A DNA stretch of 64,000 bases from GCF_056746865.1 NZ_CM163382.1; one strand, 5' to 3'. Numbered from the stretch's first letter, positions 1 through 4,466 are shown. Numbers and translations: made by a program. Notes: generated by a model from the letters alone, not told the origin.

Positions 1-2
1 GC

Positions 3-266
3 GCGCTGAGAAATACTGTGGCTAAGATTGGGGCGACAAGAAGTGGTAGGTATGCGATAGAGAAAGCCGTTCAGGAAGCTACAAAAGCAGTGCGCGCAGG
101 GGCATCACCAGCAGCGATCGCCGCAGCAGAGAAACGATTTTCGGCCAATAAAATTGCCATGAAAGCAATTCGTGATGCCGTTGGGGCTGAAGAATTCGTG
201 AAACTGACAAGGGCCGGGATTGTAGCTACCCTCAGTGGCATGAAAGATGTTAGCGAATGGGAATAG
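3..266 (+). CDS. 3' end of an unidentified protein-coding gene (frame open to the left window edge)
   Basis: Frame 3 is open from nt 3 to the TAG at 264-266. The product is Ala/Lys-rich and no family is recognised. The GTG at 18 used in the ORF track is probably internal. Confidence 0.3.
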   Translation, partial: ALRNTVAKIGATRSGRYAIEKAVQEATKAVRAGASPAAIAAAEKRFSANKIAMKAIRDAVGAEEFVKLTRAGIVATLSGMKDVSEWE

Positions 267-416
267 ACGCTCTAACTAACAAAACCATAATAGCCAAGGA
301 CGGCATACTGATATTGAGCCAACTATCAAAATTCCATATCACATTACGGGCCTGTGGCTTACATTCGCTTACAGTGATGATAATTTATAACCACGCAATT
401 CTTAGGTGAGATTATC

Positions 417-1115
417 ATGATTAAAAATCTTCTTTTAATATTATCCCTGTCATTATTGGCTGGATGCGTACAAAAACCGTTAGTAACGGTCAATGCTTTA
501 TCTTCCGGGCAATCTGTCGGTAAGAAGTTCTTGATCATCCCCGCAAGCCAAGAACTTTGGAACACCAAACAGATTGAATACACTCAAATAGCTACGGTAG
601 TAGCCGCCAGTTTATCAAGCCAAGGATATACACAAGTTAAAGATGAAAAATTGGCTGACCAGGTAATTCTCTTGAACTTTTTGAGAAGCGGGGCCATTTC
701 AAATACTCGTAATGTAACCATCCCAATATACGGGCAAACTGGTGTGAGCTCAGCAACAACGTACGGAAACTCGAACACCACGTTCAATAGTTATGGTGGT
801 GGCTACGGTACAGCTAATACCACTGGAACGGCAACAACAGTTTATACGCCTACTTATGGAATTACTGGCGCGTATAACACAACTGTGACGGACACGTTCT
901 ACGGCGCAGGGGTGATACTCCAGTCGTTTGATGCCAAGGCTTATCTCAATAATAGGCAGATTAATATGTTATGGAAAGTTGGTAGCTCAGTCGTCTCGCA
1001 ACAGTCTGATGGAATTGCTGATTACAAGGGGTTGGCGAGAATAGCCGCTAGCTATGCCGGGAAAAATACAGAAGGTGATATAACTTTTAATGTTGACCCT
1101 AAAGCACCAAATTAA
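417..1115 (+). CDS. putative lipoprotein of an accessory island
   Basis: The N-terminus MIKNLLLILSLSLLAGC has a hydrophobic signal plus an L-L-A-G-C lipobox. The central region is rich in Gly/Thr/Tyr/Asn. A hairpin terminator follows directly. Not a K-12 core gene that I recognise. Confidence 0.65.
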   Translation: MIKNLLLILSLSLLAGCVQKPLVTVNALSSGQSVGKKFLIIPASQELWNTKQIEYTQIATVVAASLSSQGYTQVKDEKLADQVILLNFLRSGAISNTRNVTIPIYGQTGVSSATTYGNSNTTFNSYGGGYGTANTTGTATTVYTPTYGITGAYNTTVTDTFYGAGVILQSFDAKAYLNNRQINMLWKVGSSVVSQQSDGIADYKGLARIAASYAGKNTEGDITFNVDPKAPN

Positions 1116-1122
1116 CTAATAA

Positions 1123-1144
1123 GCCCGGTACGCCGGGCATTTAT
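1123..1144 (+). terminator. hairpin terminator after the lipoprotein gene
   Basis: GCCCGG-tacg-CCGGGC stem-loop followed by ATTTAT, 8 nt after the stop codon. Confidence 0.5.
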
Positions 1145-1180
1145 GCCCCTATTATTCATGAATCGCTTTTTCTAGAAGGT

Positions 1181-1441
1181 ATGCGACAAACGTTAAGTGA
1201 CATTGCCTACACATTCGGGGCGGGATTTCAAATCCGCTCCCAGTTGATGGGGGGCGTTACAGTACGCGCATATCCGCTTTATGTGAAACAGGAAGATTTT
1301 TCTGATATCACTGCCACAGCAAAACACCAATTTCGTGACCAGTACGCGCGCGAGGGGCATCAGTTGCAAAAAGTTTTGCAACTGCGTCCGACCAGTACAC
1401 ACACGATGGCGGTGGATACCATAAAACTGTTCTCTACATGA
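1181..1441 (+). CDS. hypothetical protein (possibly a gene fragment)
   Basis: Only an 86-aa ORF supports this call. No family is recognised and no clear RBS is seen. Confidence 0.25.
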   Translation: MRQTLSDIAYTFGAGFQIRSQLMGGVTVRAYPLYVKQEDFSDITATAKHQFRDQYAREGHQLQKVLQLRPTSTHTMAVDTIKLFST

Positions 1442-1665
1442 GACAGAGTGGTGGTGATGTGTTGATTATCGGCGTATATGCGCACAGGTCGCGCTATGAC
1501 GATGTTTTATGCGGGTACACCAATCACATGTATCTGATGTGATAAATCGCGTTACATGACCTCTCTGTTGTGCTGGTGGTTATCACGACGTTCTGAATCT
1601 GGCTTTTGTCTGATATTTTGCGACAAGTACGCGCGCGTAGCATCGACAGCATACACATTGGATAT

Positions 1666-1887
1666 TCATTTTGTGACCAATGCGATAAGTAGCGGGATAA
1701 GCATTGATAAAATCAACAGGCCGATGATCCACTTTTGATTTTCACTGGCCTTATCTCTATTTTCATCAATCTTATCCATAATTCGACGCTCCAAGCCGTG
1801 CATATCACCGCGAATGGCAATTATCTCATTGCGAACATCCGAGAAGTGGTTGGCTTGATGTTCAATGTGTGGCGTTCTGCCTTTCAT
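1666..1887 (-). CDS. small tail-anchored membrane protein (charged helical N-terminus, single C-terminal TM)
   Basis: The 73-aa product ends in WIIGLLILSMLIPLLIALVTK, preceded by a charged helical segment. This architecture resembles small phage or island membrane proteins. The family assignment is not secure. Confidence 0.4.
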   Translation of the reverse strand: MKGRTPHIEHQANHFSDVRNEIIAIRGDMHGLERRIMDKIDENRDKASENQKWIIGLLILSMLIPLLIALVTK

Positions 1888-1966
1888 GCCTGATCCTCAC
1901 CCATCGTCACCACCTGCTGGTGTATAAAGGTATTGGCCCAAGCAGCTTTCCAATGGGCACTCATGT

Positions 1967-2422
1967 TTATACGCTGACCTTACAATCAATCACCGCTTTT
2001 AACTTTTCAGCATTGCTTCCCTGACGCTTCCACGCGCTGTAAATATCTTTATCCCACGCTTTACCAGCTTTTGTTTGATAGCCTGCTTCATTGATCCGTT
2101 CAGCTATCACACGCCCATTATCAAATCCCTGTTGGATGGTATCGGCAATGATCTTTATAACTGCCGTTTCGTTATATGGCTTTGGTGGGATGTTCGACTT
2201 TCCGGCAATAAGCGACGCAGCGGCTTTTTCCATGCGCTCCACCAGCCCAAGCATTCGTGAATCAATAGACTTTTCCGGCTGTCCCAGCTTCATGCGAATC
2301 GCATCAACAAGCCAGGAGGTTTTATCCCCTCCAGAAGCGAGAACAGACCGATTAAACTCATCCTGCAATTCAGATGGGATGCGGAACGCGACCAGATTAG
2401 ATTTGCTCATTGCAAAGACCAT
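1967..2422 (-). CDS. hypothetical protein, possible ribbon-helix-helix-type N-terminus
   Basis: The 151-aa ORF has an N-terminal SKSNLVAFRIPSELQDEFNRSV segment that looks like a beta-strand plus helix of RHH regulators. It is divergent from the PerC-like gene across the iteron array. An alternative ATG lies at 2410. Confidence 0.4.
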   Translation of the reverse strand: MVFAMSKSNLVAFRIPSELQDEFNRSVLASGGDKTSWLVDAIRMKLGQPEKSIDSRMLGLVERMEKAAASLIAGKSNIPPKPYNETAVIKIIADTIQQGFDNGRVIAERINEAGYQTKAGKAWDKDIYSAWKRQGSNAEKLKAVIDCKVSV

Positions 2423-2523
2423 ATCAGTGAGTAATATCCATACAGTATACCACTGTATAACACTGTTATACGCTCAAATATCAGCCAGAAAATAACGAAC
2501 CAATCACAAATCTATCGCTGTGT

Positions 2524-2645
2524 TGTTGGTTCAGAGCTGGGCTGTGTTGGTTCAAAATGAGTTGATGTTGGTTCAATATTTTAGAAAAAACGCAATAAAA
2601 ACAACGATCTTTACAAATTGAACCAACTGAACCAACTGAACCAAC
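2524..2645. repeat. iteron-like array: 3x TGTTGGTTCA at exact 21-bp spacing, an AT-rich spacer, then 3x inverted TGAACCAAC in head-to-tail tandem
   Basis: Direct copies lie at 2524-2533, 2545-2554 and 2566-2575. Inverted copies lie at 2619-2627, 2628-2636 and 2637-2645. All six copies are perfect. Confidence 0.9.
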
Positions 2646-2681
2646 ACCTTTTTGCTTATCTATATAATCTGAGAGGCAGAA

Positions 2682-2969
2682 ATGATAAGGGACAGGAAAG
2701 CTGAAGAGCTGGAGTCAAAAGGGCTATACCGGAGAGCTGCCGCACGATGGGCAGAAGTCATGATGCTGGCAGATGGCGATAAAGAACGTGAACATGCAGC
2801 AAACAGACGCTCTGAATGTATCCGTAAGGCGGCACGCCCACCAGCAACTACAGACAAATTCGGAGATTTAAGACAGGCAGTTAAGCGGACTCATTCGGCT
2901 CTTGGTATGGATGAGGAAGCGAGAGGGTACTTCAGGCGTTATCGCGATAAAGATTGCCAGAGACAGTAA
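2682..2969 (+). CDS. PerC/Pch-family transcriptional activator-like protein
   Basis: The 95-aa product contains KAEELESKGLYRRAAARWAEVMMLADGDKEREHAANRRSECIRKA, the LExxGLxRRAAxRWxxVM...RR..C signature I associate with PerC/Pch proteins. A TATAAT lies at 2663-2668 and GAGAGG is the RBS. Confidence 0.65.
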   Translation: MIRDRKAEELESKGLYRRAAARWAEVMMLADGDKEREHAANRRSECIRKAARPPATTDKFGDLRQAVKRTHSALGMDEEARGYFRRYRDKDCQRQ

Positions 2970-3456
2970 TGCTCTATCTGTTTTGGCAAATTACCCCTCA
3001 CTTTGAAGGGATCGGAGCTATAAAAATGGTGTTATCCGGCTTCCTGCATTGCAGGTTTTCGAAAAAATCAATGGGTTAGGTCATCGTGCAAATTTGCACT
3101 CTGCCAGCCAACGCAATTTCTCGTTGGCGAAAATATCAGGTATTTACTGATTCTGCCGCCTCACAAGGATGCGAGAACCTTATAAAACCTAATATCGCAG
3201 AGCTTAATTGTGTACAGCAATTTCACGAGCAATACGCGCGCGCAGGACAACAAGCCTGAACATGGTTACACACCTCGATCGTGAGGGATGTAGGCAATGG
3301 CTTCTGACCAAAGCACCCGAAAAAACCGTGTACATAAGGGTGTACATAATCAAAAATCGCATTAGGAAGAAACCAGATACAATGCGGCATTGAAGCCAAT
3401 ACTCTACAAACAGATCCAAACTCGTAACGCCAATTCTTCCTTTTCAGCCTTCACAA

Positions 3457-3488
3457 ATGCCGCCCACTCAAACAGAGCGGCATTTTTC
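3457..3488 (+). terminator. orphan rho-independent terminator upstream of dinD
   Basis: ATGCCGC-13 nt loop-GCGGCAT followed by TTTTT. No convincing gene ends just upstream of it. Confidence 0.5.
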
Positions 3489-3578
3489 CTCCCCGCAACA
3501 TTCAATTCTGTTTTGCGTGCCTGCTCCAGATTTTGCGATGTTTTTTTGCCCAGCGCAGTGAGAACGTGAGATACTTAC

Positions 3579-3598
3579 AACTGTATATAAACACAGTT
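3579..3598 (+). promoter_or_regulatory. LexA (SOS) box of dinD
   Basis: AACTGTATATAAACACAGTT fits CTG-N10-CAG with a TA-rich centre and ends 44 nt before the dinD ATG. dinD is a known SOS gene. Confidence 0.85.
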
Positions 3599-3641
3599 GT
3601 AGACTTACTTTCCTTGCAATCGATATCACATGGAGTGGGCA

Positions 3642-4466
3642 ATGAACGAACATCATCAACCTTTTGAAGAGATAAAGCTGATTAATGCAAACGGAGCAGA
3701 ACAATGGTCAGCAAGACAACTTGGAAAACTACTGGGTTATTCAGAGTATCGTCACTTTATACCTGTATTAACGCGCGCCAAAGAAGCTTGTCTGAATAGT
3801 GGTCACACAATTGATGACCATTTCGAGGAGATCCTCGATATGGTCAAAATTGGCTCAAATGCCAAAAGAGCATTAAAAGACATCGTACTCTCCCGCTATG
3901 CCTGTTACCTGGTAGTACAAAACGGCGACCCTGCGAAACCGGTTATTGCGGCAGGGCAAACTTATTTTGCTATCCAGACCCGACGGCAGGAGCTGGCTGA
4001 CGATGAAGCTTTCAGGCAACTTCGTGAAGACGAAAAGCGTCTTTTTCTGAGAAATGAGTTGAAAGAACATAACAAACAATTAGTTGAGGCAGCGCAGCAA
4101 GCTGGGGTAGCGACAGCTATCGATTTCGCCATATTTCAGAATCATGGTTACCGGGGACTGTATGGTGGATTAGATCAGAAAGCTATCCATCAGCGGAAGG
4201 GGCTGAAAAAGAGTCAGAAGATCCTGGATCATATGGGTTCAACAGAACTGGCGGCTAATCTCTTTCGAGCTACCCAAACAGAAGAAAAACTCAAGCGGGA
4301 TGGCGTGAATTCAAAACAGCAAGCTAACACCACACACTTTGACGTGGGTAGCAAGGTGAGGCAAACCATTCAGGAACTTGGCGGAACCATGCCTGAGGAG
4401 TTGCCGACCTCGCAGGTCAGCATCAAGCAGTTGGAAAACAGTGTAAAAATTACAGAGAAGAAATAG
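3642..4466 (+). CDS. dinD: DNA damage-inducible protein D
   Basis: The product MNEHHQPFEEIKLINANGAEQWSARQLGKLLGYSEYRHF... is recognised as E. coli DinD. The ATG at 3642 was chosen over 3630 to match the DinD N-terminus. Confidence 0.93.
   Translation: MNEHHQPFEEIKLINANGAEQWSARQLGKLLGYSEYRHFIPVLTRAKEACLNSGHTIDDHFEEILDMVKIGSNAKRALKDIVLSRYACYLVVQNGDPAKPVIAAGQTYFAIQTRRQELADDEAFRQLREDEKRLFLRNELKEHNKQLVEAAQQAGVATAIDFAIFQNHGYRGLYGGLDQKAIHQRKGLKKSQKILDHMGSTELAANLFRATQTEEKLKRDGVNSKQQANTTHFDVGSKVRQTIQELGGTMPEELPTSQVSIKQLENSVKITEKK

What the first reader, a model, noticed from the sequence alone, without database searches (positions are those of the whole stretch)
1..3560. Unrecognised accessory island abuts dinD where K-12 has yicC
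From dinD rightward the window is K-12-like. The 3.5 kb to its left is not: K-12 has yicC directly upstream of dinD. This stretch instead carries an open-ended ORF, a lipoprotein gene, a tail-anchored 73-aa membrane protein, a possible RHH protein, an iteron array and a PerC-like regulator. It ends in about 600 bp of non-coding DNA with palindromes (GTGCAAATTTGCAC at about 3087-3100; GCCAACG-N8-CGTTGGC at 3106-3127), a tandem GTGTACATAA repeat at about 3329-3352, and an orphan terminator at 3457-3488. Most products match no family I know. The island's left end and its integration machinery lie outside the window.
Basis: partly seen in the sequence, partly recalled or inferred. Interest (0 to 1): 0.5.

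Follow-up and report, generated by a model that had tools for sequence, protein, structure and literature searches.

The report
Right end of an EcCIMP1-like phage satellite
The 3.4 kb left of dinD is the right-hand end of a roughly 19-kb phage satellite (a PICI of the EcCIMP1 family, described in 2025) inserted into the end of yicC, so it is a real accessory island of a known kind, here at a second integration site.

Summary
The non-K-12 DNA is real, but it ends at window 3418, not 3560. From 3419 on the sequence is the K-12 yicC-dinD spacer, and the 'orphan' terminator is yicC's own. Close relatives (97-99% identical) show a ~19-kb element inserted in the last codons of yicC. Its order is integrase, AlpA, AntA/B, Ash, primase-helicase, P22-type genes 14-7-20-16, a variable slot, a PerC-like gene, attR. 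Window 1-1646 is 98.2% identical to EcCIMP1, and the lipoprotein is 100% identical. EcCIMP1 is a PICI at thrW, shown experimentally to be mobilised by the P22-like phage Kapi1 (PMC11773190). The open-ended ORF is the C-terminus of a gp16-type ejection protein. The lipoprotein has a DUF4136/TraT/PelC-like fold and sits where relatives carry a SieA-like gene. The iteron array is a mirror-image second copy of the array just after the primase gene. The GTGTACATAA pair matches repeats beside attL, as integrase arm sites would. The attR core has lost about 11 bp. The junction is empty in 77% of complete E. coli genomes. Verdict: a new member of a known kind. The yicC site, the twin iteron arrays and the exclusion-slot lipoprotein are not discussed in the EcCIMP1 paper.

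The parts
1..266 (+). C-terminal 87 codons of a P22 gp16-type DNA-ejection protein. In relatives it is a 906-aa protein with an N-terminal SLT lytic-transglycosylase domain fused to gp16.
   Evidence: phrog_770 'DNA transfer protein', E 8.8e-9. DNA is 70-75% identical to the gp16 genes of CUS-3, epsilon34 and SEN22. The full protein in L001 is 51% identical to CUS-3 gp16 over residues 175-899. Pfam SLT and Phage_P22_gp16.
417..1115 (+). Lipoprotein, 232 aa, occupying the slot just after gene 16. Candidate superinfection-exclusion protein (inferred).
1123..1148 (.). Two overlapping terminator-like G+C hairpins, one on each strand, after the lipoprotein gene.
   Evidence: Terminator scan.
1217..1646 (.). 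Conserved non-coding block with two copies of the motif TTYRYGASMARTACGCGCGCG (1332-1352 and 1617-1637). The 86-aa ORF at 1181-1441 is probably spurious.
   Evidence: The block is 95-98% identical in relatives, including those without the lipoprotein gene. The ORF is frameshifted or stopped in L001, L006-L012, L014 and MP1. The motif occurs 3 times against 0.02 expected.
1666..1887 (-). 73-aa protein with a C-terminal membrane anchor, lying in the variable cargo slot.
   Evidence: phrog_6324, E 7.3e-11; weak holin phrog_689, E 0.01. Hydrophobic tail WIIGLLILSMLIPLLIALV. Relatives hold Abi_2, ImmA/IrrE, Doc toxin or alpA_1 here instead.
1967..2410 (-). 147-aa putative DNA-binding protein. The N-terminus looks RHH-like (pattern only). 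The C-terminus resembles a recombinase-type HTH. It is transcribed divergently from the PerC gene.
   Evidence: More than 355 homologues at 64% identity or higher across Enterobacterales, about 143 aa, starting MSKS. Pfam HTH_62 matched in 24 of 28 members (best E 0.0094) and Recombinase in 14 of 28, all below threshold. One source names a homologue 'Arc-like DNA binding domain protein'. Only the C-terminal domain is modelled confidently. No PDB match. Absent from EcCIMP1 itself.
2440..2469 (.). Inverted repeat ATACAGT-N5-ACTGTAT with a partial third copy, in the promoter region of the 147-aa gene. Possible operator.
   Evidence: Read from the sequence. Conserved in relatives.
2497..2645 (.). 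Iteron array B. It consists of one degenerate inverted copy (2497-2505), GTTGGTTCA x3 at 21-nt spacing, a 43-nt spacer with an A/T-rich core, then TGAACCAAC x3 head to tail. The last copy reaches the -35 position of the PerC promoter (-10 TATAAT at 2663-2668).
   Evidence: It is a mirror-image homologue of the array 25 nt after the primase gene in L001, L003 and MP1. The same iterons follow a 69%-identical DUF927 helicase gene in Klebsiella phage P12620-1. Iterons and spacing are invariant while the spacers diverge.
2682..2969 (+). PerC-family small regulator, 95 aa. It is a different allele from EcCIMP1_025.
   Evidence: Pfam PerC, E 1.3e-33. 54% identical to EcCIMP1_025, which repressed LEE1 in C. 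rodentium (PMC11773190). Sub-threshold NCBIfam ANR_neg_reg hit, E 1.9e-5.
3021..3080 (+). 60-nt fragment of a phage antirepressor (Roi/KilAC) gene.
   Evidence: 83% identical to roi/antirepressor genes of HK620, H-19B and Stx phages and to Kapi1_032.
3035..3139 (.). Palindrome-bearing non-coding block shared by several kinds of E. coli satellites (GTGCAAATTTGCAC at 3086-3099; GCCAACG-N8-CGTTGGC at 3107-3128). Function unknown.
   Evidence: Found in 531 of 5426 genomes and never annotated. It lies at the integrase-distal end of cfPICI-like islands (L015, L092) and of another PICI at dinD (L091).
3149..3199 (+). 51-nt fragment of a small-terminase gene, part of a rare 58-nt allele that replaces the usual 83-nt segment.
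   Evidence: 49 of 51 nt identical to codons 39-55 of a prophage terS gene. This allele is in 17 genomes and the common allele in at least 174. The donor prophage is myovirus-type.
3207..3418 (.). attR arm of the element. It holds the third TACGCGCGCG motif (3222-3242) and the tandem GTGTACATAA pair (3328-3337 and 3340-3349), read here as arm-type integrase binding sites.
   Evidence: Conserved in all yicC-type relatives, including those in another Escherichia-like background. GTGTACATAG/GTGTACATAA/TTATGTACAC repeats lie between attL and the int gene in L001.
3411..3424 (.). attR core remnant and junction with core DNA. About 11 bp of the 21-bp core CAGATTCAGAAYATYGAATAA are missing.
   Evidence: attL, attR and attB were compared. 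Intact cores occur in L001 and L013. The same deletion occurs in L006 and L012.
3419..3641 (+). Core K-12-type DNA, not part of the island. It holds the yicC terminator (3456-3488) and the dinD promoter with its LexA box CTGTATATAAACACAG (3581-3596). dinD itself is 3642-4466.
   Evidence: 95.9% identical to the K-12 spacer. The LexA-box reading rests on the established consensus CTG-N10-CAG.

Best explanation
Window 1-3418 is the attR-proximal 3.4 kb of an EcCIMP1-like phage-inducible chromosomal island (PICI), about 19 kb long. The island is integrated by a tyrosine recombinase into the last seven codons of yicC. The insertion rebuilds the yicC end at attL and leaves yicC's terminator next to dinD.

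In complete relatives the order is: int, alpA, antA/B, ash, primase-helicase with an iteron origin, P22-type genes 14-7-20-16 (ejection proteins), an exclusion slot, a cargo slot, a second iteron array, a perC-like gene, attR.

For the near-identical backbone of EcCIMP1 it has been shown that induction of a P22-like helper (Kapi1) triggers AlpA- and integrase-dependent excision and circularisation, followed by transfer in helper particles.

Inferred roles of the parts in the window:
- The gp16-type protein is a virion ejection protein supplied by the satellite.
- The DUF4136/TraT-like lipoprotein in the sieA position is the likeliest agent of the superinfection immunity reported for EcCIMP1.
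- The 73-aa and 147-aa genes are exchangeable cargo.
- Iteron array B is a second binding site for the DUF927 primase-helicase, analogous to P4 ori plus crr. It overlaps the promoter of the PerC-like regulator.
- The GTGTACATAA pair are integrase arm sites.
- The partly deleted core suggests this copy may excise poorly.
For: Boundary and att site:
- fix the junction at 3418/3419.
- A 21-bp direct repeat equal to the yicC 3' end lies at attL and attR of L001.

Architecture:
- Searches show the same gene order in more than 10 relatives at yicC.
- Searches show it at thrW with an integrase only 28.6% identical.
- Pfam hits: Phage_AlpA, Phage_ASH, Zn_Ribbon_Prim+Toprim_3+DUF927, DUF2824, P22_gp7, Inj_translocase, SLT.
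- The order and gene sizes match CUS-3 and Kapi1 genes 14-7-20-16. gp14 is 83.6% identical to Kapi1_055.

Identity to EcCIMP1:
- Window 1-1646 is 98.2% identical.
- The L001 element is 98.8% identical over 14.5 kb.
- The lipoprotein is 100% identical.

Experimental behaviour of EcCIMP1:
- PMC11773190.

Iterons:
-.

Arm sites:
-.

Lipoprotein fold and slot:
-.

Accessory status:
-.
Against: - The window itself holds no integrase, alpA or primase gene. The left 15-16 kb is inferred from relatives that are 97-99% identical.
- The closest relative (L013, 99.4%) has a different primase module (DUF5906) with different iterons and no array A. Array B may therefore have no cognate protein in this strain.
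- The attR core lacks about 11 bp.
- EcCIMP1 lacks window 1647-2523, and its PerC is only 54% identical.
- No exclusion function of the lipoprotein has been tested.
- Transduction of EcCIMP1 by Kapi1 was reported as very inefficient.
Confidence: 0.88

Rival explanations
1. The element is of the EcCIMP1 type but is an immobilised relic in this strain. The half-deleted attR core prevents excision, so the DNA now behaves as a fixed accessory island. Only its cargo (lipoprotein, PerC-like regulator) still matters.
For: The window's attR reads CAGATCCAAACTCG, where L001 and L013 have CAGATTCAGAACATTGAATAACTCG. L006 and L012 carry the same 11-bp loss, and L007-L009 carry shorter ones. This suggests repeated decay of the core.
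Against: The crossover region of this integrase is unknown, and the retained CAGATYCA may be enough. The arm sites and all ORFs in the window are intact. attL cannot be seen.
Confidence: 0.3
2. Iteron array B is not a replication site. It is an operator array for a transcription factor that controls the divergent 147-aa and perC-like genes.
For: The head-to-tail triplet ends at the -35 position of the PerC promoter. Array B keeps 6 of 6 perfect iterons in elements whose primase module is the unrelated DUF5906 type.
Against: The same iterons, in mirror image, lie directly after the DUF927 primase gene in every DUF927-type element. They also follow a homologous helicase gene in an unrelated Klebsiella phage. 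EcCIMP1 keeps array B although it lacks the 147-aa gene. The two roles do not exclude each other.
Confidence: 0.3
3. The region is the stump of a decayed P22-like prophage (genes 16, sieA slot, mnt-like, ant), not part of a satellite.
For: The synteny matches P22-like phages: gene 16, then small exported proteins, then a divergent regulator pair, then an antirepressor fragment. The authors of the EcCIMP1 paper themselves first classed the region as an incomplete prophage.
Against: The ejection module is always joined to the same int-alpA-primase backbone, at two different att sites, with intact ORFs in all the complete relatives examined. No capsid, portal, terminase, tail or lysis genes are present. 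EcCIMP1 excises and transfers only with a helper.
Confidence: 0.04
4. It is a P4-like satellite.
For: It has an integrase, an AlpA-type HTH, an Ash-family protein, a zinc-ribbon/Toprim primase-helicase and two separated iteron clusters. The last feature recalls P4 ori and crr (own knowledge of P4).
Against: No Psu, Delta or Sid homologues are annotated or detected in L001. The helper shown for EcCIMP1 is a P22-like podovirus, not a P2-like myovirus. The virion-related genes are P22 ejection genes.
Confidence: 0.03

Closest known systems
EcCIMP1, the PICI of E. coli MP1 (Pick, Stadel & Raivio, ISME J 2025, PMC11773190)
   Same: Same backbone in relatives of the window's element (98.8% over 14.5 kb). 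Same SLT-gp16 gene and an identical lipoprotein. Same block 1217-1646. Both iteron arrays are present. A PerC-family gene follows array B. Size is about 19-20 kb.
   Different: It integrates at the yicC 3' end through a 419-aa integrase that is 28.6% identical to the thrW-type one. The cargo slot holds the 73-aa and 147-aa genes instead of alpA_1. The PerC allele is 54% identical. The right end (2970-3418) differs. The attR core is partly deleted.
Gram-negative PICIs such as EcCICFT073 and EcCIEDL933 (Fillol-Salom et al. 2018, PMC6092414)
   Same: int, alpA and primase organisation. No lysis or capsid genes. Site-specific integration. Helper-dependent life cycle. The 116-nt palindromic block is shared with cfPICI-like islands.
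   Different: The module downstream of the primase holds P22 ejection-protein genes instead of capsid-redirecting or packaging genes. By the EcCIMP1 authors' account it would be a 'Type C' PICI in the SatelliteFinder scheme.
P22-like phages (Lederbergvirus: P22, CUS-3, Kapi1), region from gene 14 to ant
   Same: Order and sizes of genes 14, 7, 20 and 16. An exclusion slot after gene 16. A divergently transcribed small regulator. An antirepressor remnant.
   Different: No head, tail, terminase or lysis genes. gp16 is fused to an SLT domain. PerC replaces arc/ant. The 147-aa protein shows no sequence similarity to Kapi1's Arc/Mnt-type protein.
Phage P4 bipartite origin (ori plus crr bound by the alpha primase-helicase; own knowledge)
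   Same: Two separated clusters of the same short iteron. Here one lies next to the primase-helicase gene.
   Different: The iteron sequence differs and the helicase domain is DUF927. The arrays are inverted and about 8 kb apart. No binding or replication data exist.
TraT surface-exclusion lipoprotein (PDB 9e2v; PMC11733297)
   Different: Pfam TraT hit only at E 0.09. The hairpin is much longer and rich in Gly/Thr/Asn/Tyr. No counterpart of the TraT membrane helices was identified. PelC and DUF4136 score as well or better.

Membership tests
EcCIMP1-like PICI | Nucleotide identity to EcCIMP1 over shared modules | tested here: met
   Window 1-1646 is 98.2% identical and 2524-2765 is 87.7% identical to MP1. 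The lipoprotein is 100% identical.
EcCIMP1-like PICI | Backbone of integrase, AlpA, antirepressor, Ash and DNA primase | not testable with these tools
   The backbone lies outside the window. It is present in every close relative examined (L001, L006, L013 in part), but this strain's own left part is unseen.
EcCIMP1-like PICI | DNA-transfer (ejection) gene module downstream of the primase | tested here: met
   The window opens inside the gp16-type gene. The full 14-7-20-16 module is present in relatives.
EcCIMP1-like PICI | PerC-family regulator at the integrase-distal end | tested here: met
   Pfam PerC at 115.5 bits against a cut-off of 22.6.
PICI (Gram-negative) | No phage structural (capsid, tail), terminase or lysis genes | tested here: met
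   None are present in the window part or in the full relatives, apart from the ejection proteins and gp14.
PICI (Gram-negative) | Specific att site flanked by direct repeats | tested here: met
   A 21-bp repeat flanks the L001 element. The window's attR is at the same position but has an 11-bp deletion.
PICI (Gram-negative) | Helper-induced excision, replication and packaging | not testable with these tools
   Shown experimentally only for EcCIMP1 with Kapi1 (PMC11773190).
P4-like satellite | psu, delta and sid genes | tested here: not met
   None are annotated in L001. None were detected in the ORFs scanned with Pfam and PHROGs. Not every small ORF was scanned.
P22-like prophage | Portal, coat, terminase, tailspike and lysis genes | tested here: not met
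   Absent from all full relatives.
TraT family | Match to Pfam TraT above its gathering score | tested here: not met
DUF4136 lipoproteins | Match to Pfam PF13590 | tested here: inconclusive
RHH (Arc/MetJ) repressors | Detectable RHH domain | tested here: inconclusive
   No Pfam RHH hit and no PDB hit. The N-terminus is modelled poorly, as expected for an obligate dimer. The only support is the sequence pattern and one database name.

The most novel reading that the evidence does not exclude
The satellite carries its own entry-and-exclusion kit. It supplies P22-type ejection proteins that ride in helper virions. Its TraT/PelC-like ring lipoprotein, in the sieA slot, blocks DNA entry by P22-like phages at the outer membrane. 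This would be a new kind of superinfection exclusion and the agent of the immunity reported for EcCIMP1. In addition, the twin inverted iteron arrays would form a P4-like two-site origin whose second site ties PerC-type regulator expression to satellite replication.
Probability: 0.25. Interest if true: 0.55.

Novelty: new member of a known kind. Interest (0 to 1): 0.3.

Why it matters
The finding turns an 'unknown island' into a defined object: an EcCIMP1-type satellite of P22-like phages at a second chromosomal site.

- The yicC 3' end is interrupted in about 23% of complete E. coli genomes, and other satellites use it too.
- The EcCIMP1 paper left the replication origin and the packaging mechanism open, and did not identify the cause of superinfection immunity. 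The paired iteron arrays, the arm sites and the exclusion-slot lipoprotein give concrete targets for those experiments.
- The PerC-type regulator of this family can silence LEE virulence genes, so its distribution and alleles matter for pathogen biology.
- For genome annotation, such islands should not be scored as defective prophages.

Tried and rejected
- Rfam scan of 1-3700 gave only a chance miRNA hit on the iterons. There are no tRNAs.
- PADLOC gave no hit for any of the five ORFs. NCBIfam gave only sub-threshold hits.
- The 147-aa protein has no meaningful Foldseek hit in the PDB and no profile hit to PDB sequences. It shows no similarity to Kapi1's Arc-family protein.
- The 73-aa protein is not similar to Kapi1's XhlA-like protein.
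- I tested whether the terS fragment at 3149-3199 is a pac-site mimic. The alternative, common allele matches no gene at all. The fragment is absent from the phage collection. Its source is a myovirus-type prophage. I therefore rate it a probable recombination scar.
- None of the three repeated motifs occurs in the helper phage Kapi1.
- The RNA fold of block 1217-1366 is not unusual.
- Literature searches for yicC/dinD integration found only a passing mention of 'partial phage' DNA there.
- Searches for satellites with ejection proteins found nothing until the EcCIMP1 paper turned up.

Full report
**1. What is in the sequence**

- An ORF runs in from the left edge and ends at 266.
- A lipoprotein gene lies at 417-1115.
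- A 73-aa ORF with a hydrophobic C-terminus lies at 1666-1887 on the minus strand.
- A 147/151-aa ORF lies at 1967-2410/2422 on the minus strand.
- An iteron array lies at 2497-2645.
- A PerC-family gene lies at 2682-2969 (Pfam PerC, E 1.3e-33).
- About 450 bp of non-coding DNA follow, holding the palindromes at 3086-3099 and 3107-3128 and the tandem GTGTACATAA at 3328 and 3340.

K-12 does have yicC directly upstream of dinD. yicC is nowhere in the window.

**2. Where the island ends**

The K-12 yicC-dinD spacer aligns with window 3419 onward at 95.9%. The hairpin and T-run at 3456-3488 is yicC's own terminator in K-12. It is therefore core DNA, not an orphan terminator of the island. The dinD LexA box (3581-3596) is also core. 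The foreign DNA is 1-3418.

**3. The whole element, seen in relatives**

No complete E. coli genome matches exactly. The best matches are 97.3-98.5% identical, and one draft chromosome (L013) is 99.4% identical over window 1-3674.

In E. coli 4750 (L001) the same right end closes a 19-kb insert between yicC and dinD. The gene order is:
- a tyrosine integrase and a 72-aa AlpA-type HTH;
- AntA/AntB, DUF4222 and an Ash-family protein;
- seven small ORFs;
- a 918-aa primase-helicase (Zn_Ribbon_Prim, Toprim_3, DUF927);
- DUF2824, P22_gp7, Inj_translocase and a 906-aa SLT-plus-gp16 protein;
- the lipoprotein, the 73-aa gene, the 147-aa gene and PerC.

A 21-bp direct repeat, CAGATTCAGAAYATYGAATAA, flanks the insert. 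It equals the last seven codons of yicC including the stop codon. Insertion therefore leaves yicC intact.

The module after the primase matches genes 14, 7, 20 and 16 of P22-like phages in order and size (CUS-3; Kapi1). Protein identities are 84% (gp14 against Kapi1), 57-58% (gp7), 26-29% (gp20) and 24-51% (gp16).

The window's open-ended ORF is the C-terminus of this gp16-type protein (phrog_770).

**4. It is an EcCIMP1-like PICI**

The same element sits at thrW (tRNA-Thr beside proA) in other strains (L003). There it has an integrase only 28.6% identical to the yicC-type one.

A literature search led to Pick, Stadel and Raivio (ISME J 2025, PMC11773190). They describe EcCIMP1 as follows:
- It is a 19,963-bp PICI at thrW in E. 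coli MP1.
- It excises and circularises only when the P22-like phage Kapi1 is present, and more so when Kapi1 is induced.
- Excision needs its alpA and integrase genes.
- It is transferred by Kapi1, at low frequency.
- It adds to superinfection immunity against Kapi1.
- Its PerC-family protein silences LEE1 in Citrobacter rodentium.

I fetched the MP1 locus (L020).
- Window 1-1646 is 98.2% identical to it.
- Window 2524-2765 is 87.7% identical.
- The L001 element is 98.8% identical over 14.5 kb.
- The lipoprotein is 100% identical.
- The PerC protein is a different allele, 54% identical.
- Window 1647-2523 (the 73-aa and 147-aa genes) has no counterpart in EcCIMP1, which carries alpA_1 there.

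The paper does not mention the yicC site, the iterons or an origin. It calls the P22-type genes 'DNA transfer' genes.

**5. How common it is**

- The yicC-dinD junction is uninterrupted in 4192 of 5426 complete genomes.
- Some part of window 1-3410 is found in 733 genomes, and 80% or more of it in 33.
- The family is a mosaic. Relatives differ in the primase module (DUF927 or DUF5906), in the gp20 and gp16 alleles, and in the gene after gp16. That gene is the lipoprotein, a SieA-like 204-aa protein (PF26849, weak) or other small proteins.
- The next slot also varies: the 73-aa gene, Abi_2, ImmA/IrrE, a Doc toxin or alpA_1.
- An unrelated PICI also uses the dinD-proximal site (L091).
- One earlier paper mentions 'partial phage' DNA between yicC and dinD in passing.

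**6. The iteron array**

The window array has GTTGGTTCA three times at 21-nt spacing, a 43-nt spacer with an A/T-rich core, and TGAACCAAC three times head to tail.

In L001, L003 and MP1 a second array lies 25 nt after the primase stop codon. It has the same 9-mer and the same spacer core in mirror image, about 8 kb away.

In Klebsiella phage P12620-1, a protein 69% identical to primase residues 338-907 is followed at once by the same iterons.

Across diverged relatives, all six iterons and their spacing are invariant, while the spacers between them are replaced. These are therefore protein-binding sites under selection. The natural candidate is the DUF927 primase-helicase. The arrangement recalls P4 ori and crr (own knowledge of P4; an inference).

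The last iteron reaches the -35 position of the PerC promoter (-10 TATAAT at 2663-2668).

One fact argues against a purely replicative role. Relatives with the DUF5906 primase have different iterons (CCTGTACCACC and related) and no array A, yet keep array B perfect. This group includes L013, the closest relative of the window.

**7. The right arm**

GTGTACATAG, GTGTACATAA and TTATGTACAC lie between attL and the integrase gene in L001. The same tandem pair lies about 70 nt inside attR. This is the pattern expected of arm-type integrase sites.

The attR core in the window reads CAGATCCAAACTCG. About 11 bp are missing relative to L001 and L013. Other relatives show the same or smaller losses. This copy may be impaired for excision.

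**8. The proteins**

*147-aa protein.* It belongs to a very conserved family across Enterobacterales (more than 355 members). It has weak similarity to recombinase-type HTH domains. Its N-terminus looks like an RHH motif but gives no family hit. In Serratia, homologues lie at the end of elements that carry Abi_2, AlpA and large SLT-containing proteins.

*73-aa protein.* It matches phrog_6324.

*PerC homologue.* It has a sub-threshold match to ANR negative regulators. This would fit the repressor behaviour reported for EcCIMP1_025.

**9. Other non-coding features**

- Window 3021-3080 is a fragment of a Roi/KilAC antirepressor gene.
- Window 3149-3199 is a 51-nt fragment of a terS gene from a myovirus-type prophage, present as a rare allele. 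I read it as a recombination scar.
- The palindromic block 3030-3145 occurs in 531 genomes, at the integrase-distal ends of several satellite types.
- The motif TTYRYGASMARTACGCGCGCG occurs three times, at slot edges.
- The functions of the last two are unknown.

**10. Verdict**

It is not an unknown kind of element. It is a new member of the EcCIMP1 family of PICIs, at a second att site and with different cargo. The main limit is that the integrase, alpA and primase of this strain lie outside the window.

Noticed in passing
window 1332-1352, 1617-1637, 3222-3242: A 21-nt motif, TTYRYGASMARTACGCGCGCG, occurs exactly three times in the 64-kb window, all on the + strand (0.02 expected). Relatives and EcCIMP1 carry it at the same three places, at the edges of the variable cargo slots. 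It is absent from the helper phage Kapi1. Function unknown.
   Followed up: partly
window 3030-3145: A 116-nt palindrome-bearing block is present in 531 of 5426 E. coli genomes, with up to 4 copies, and is never annotated. It lies at the integrase-distal end of unrelated satellites: cfPICI-like islands at yejO and clpS, and another PICI at dinD. The minus-strand fold has z = -3.1.
   Followed up: partly
window 3149-3199: A 51-nt stretch is 96% identical to codons 39-55 of a small-terminase gene from a myovirus-type lambdoid prophage. This rare allele (17 genomes) replaces the usual 83-nt segment (at least 174 genomes). It is probably a recombination scar. A pac-site role was considered and rated unlikely.
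   Followed up: yes
window 1181-1441: The 86-aa ORF is intact here and in L003 and L013. It is frameshifted or stopped in most relatives, including EcCIMP1, while the surrounding DNA (1217-1646) stays 95-98% identical. This is conserved non-coding DNA of unknown role.
   Followed up: partly
L013 480-700 and 1630-1760; also L009, L011: Relatives with a DUF5906-type primase carry different iterons (CCTGTACCACC and related) in two clusters flanking 76-aa and 245-aa genes. They lack array A but keep the GTTGGTTCA array B intact. This is a replication-module swap.
   Followed up: partly
L005 3820-4100 (Klebsiella phage P12620-1, 106 kb): A protein 69% identical to the DUF927-helicase part of the PICI primase is followed by at least 11 copies of the same GTTGGTTCA iteron. 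This is probably the origin of a large phage or phage-plasmid.
   Followed up: no
L017-L019 (Serratia marcescens): Homologues of the 147-aa protein lie at the end of integrated elements that carry Abi_2, AlpA and large SLT-containing proteins (898, 562 and 850 aa). This suggests related satellites with another type of ejection or internal-virion module.
   Followed up: no
L091 (E. coli OkiPb01712), beside dinD: A different PICI occupies the same dinD-proximal site. It carries a primase-family protein, SSB, ProQ/FinO, three PerC-family genes and a Q antiterminator. It shares the last ~105 nt of the attR arm (89% over window 3314-3674).
   Followed up: no
window 2682-2969: The PerC homologue has a sub-threshold match to NCBIfam ANR_neg_reg, the AraC negative regulators (E 1.9e-5; 24.4 bits against a cut-off of 32). 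This could explain why EcCIMP1's PerC-family protein represses rather than activates LEE1.
   Followed up: no
L011 and L014, right of attR: In two draft genomes whose core DNA is only about 87% identical to the window, the same island abuts a LysR regulator and a metallo-beta-lactamase-fold gene instead of dinD. The element therefore also occurs in another Escherichia-like species with a different neighbourhood.
   Followed up: no
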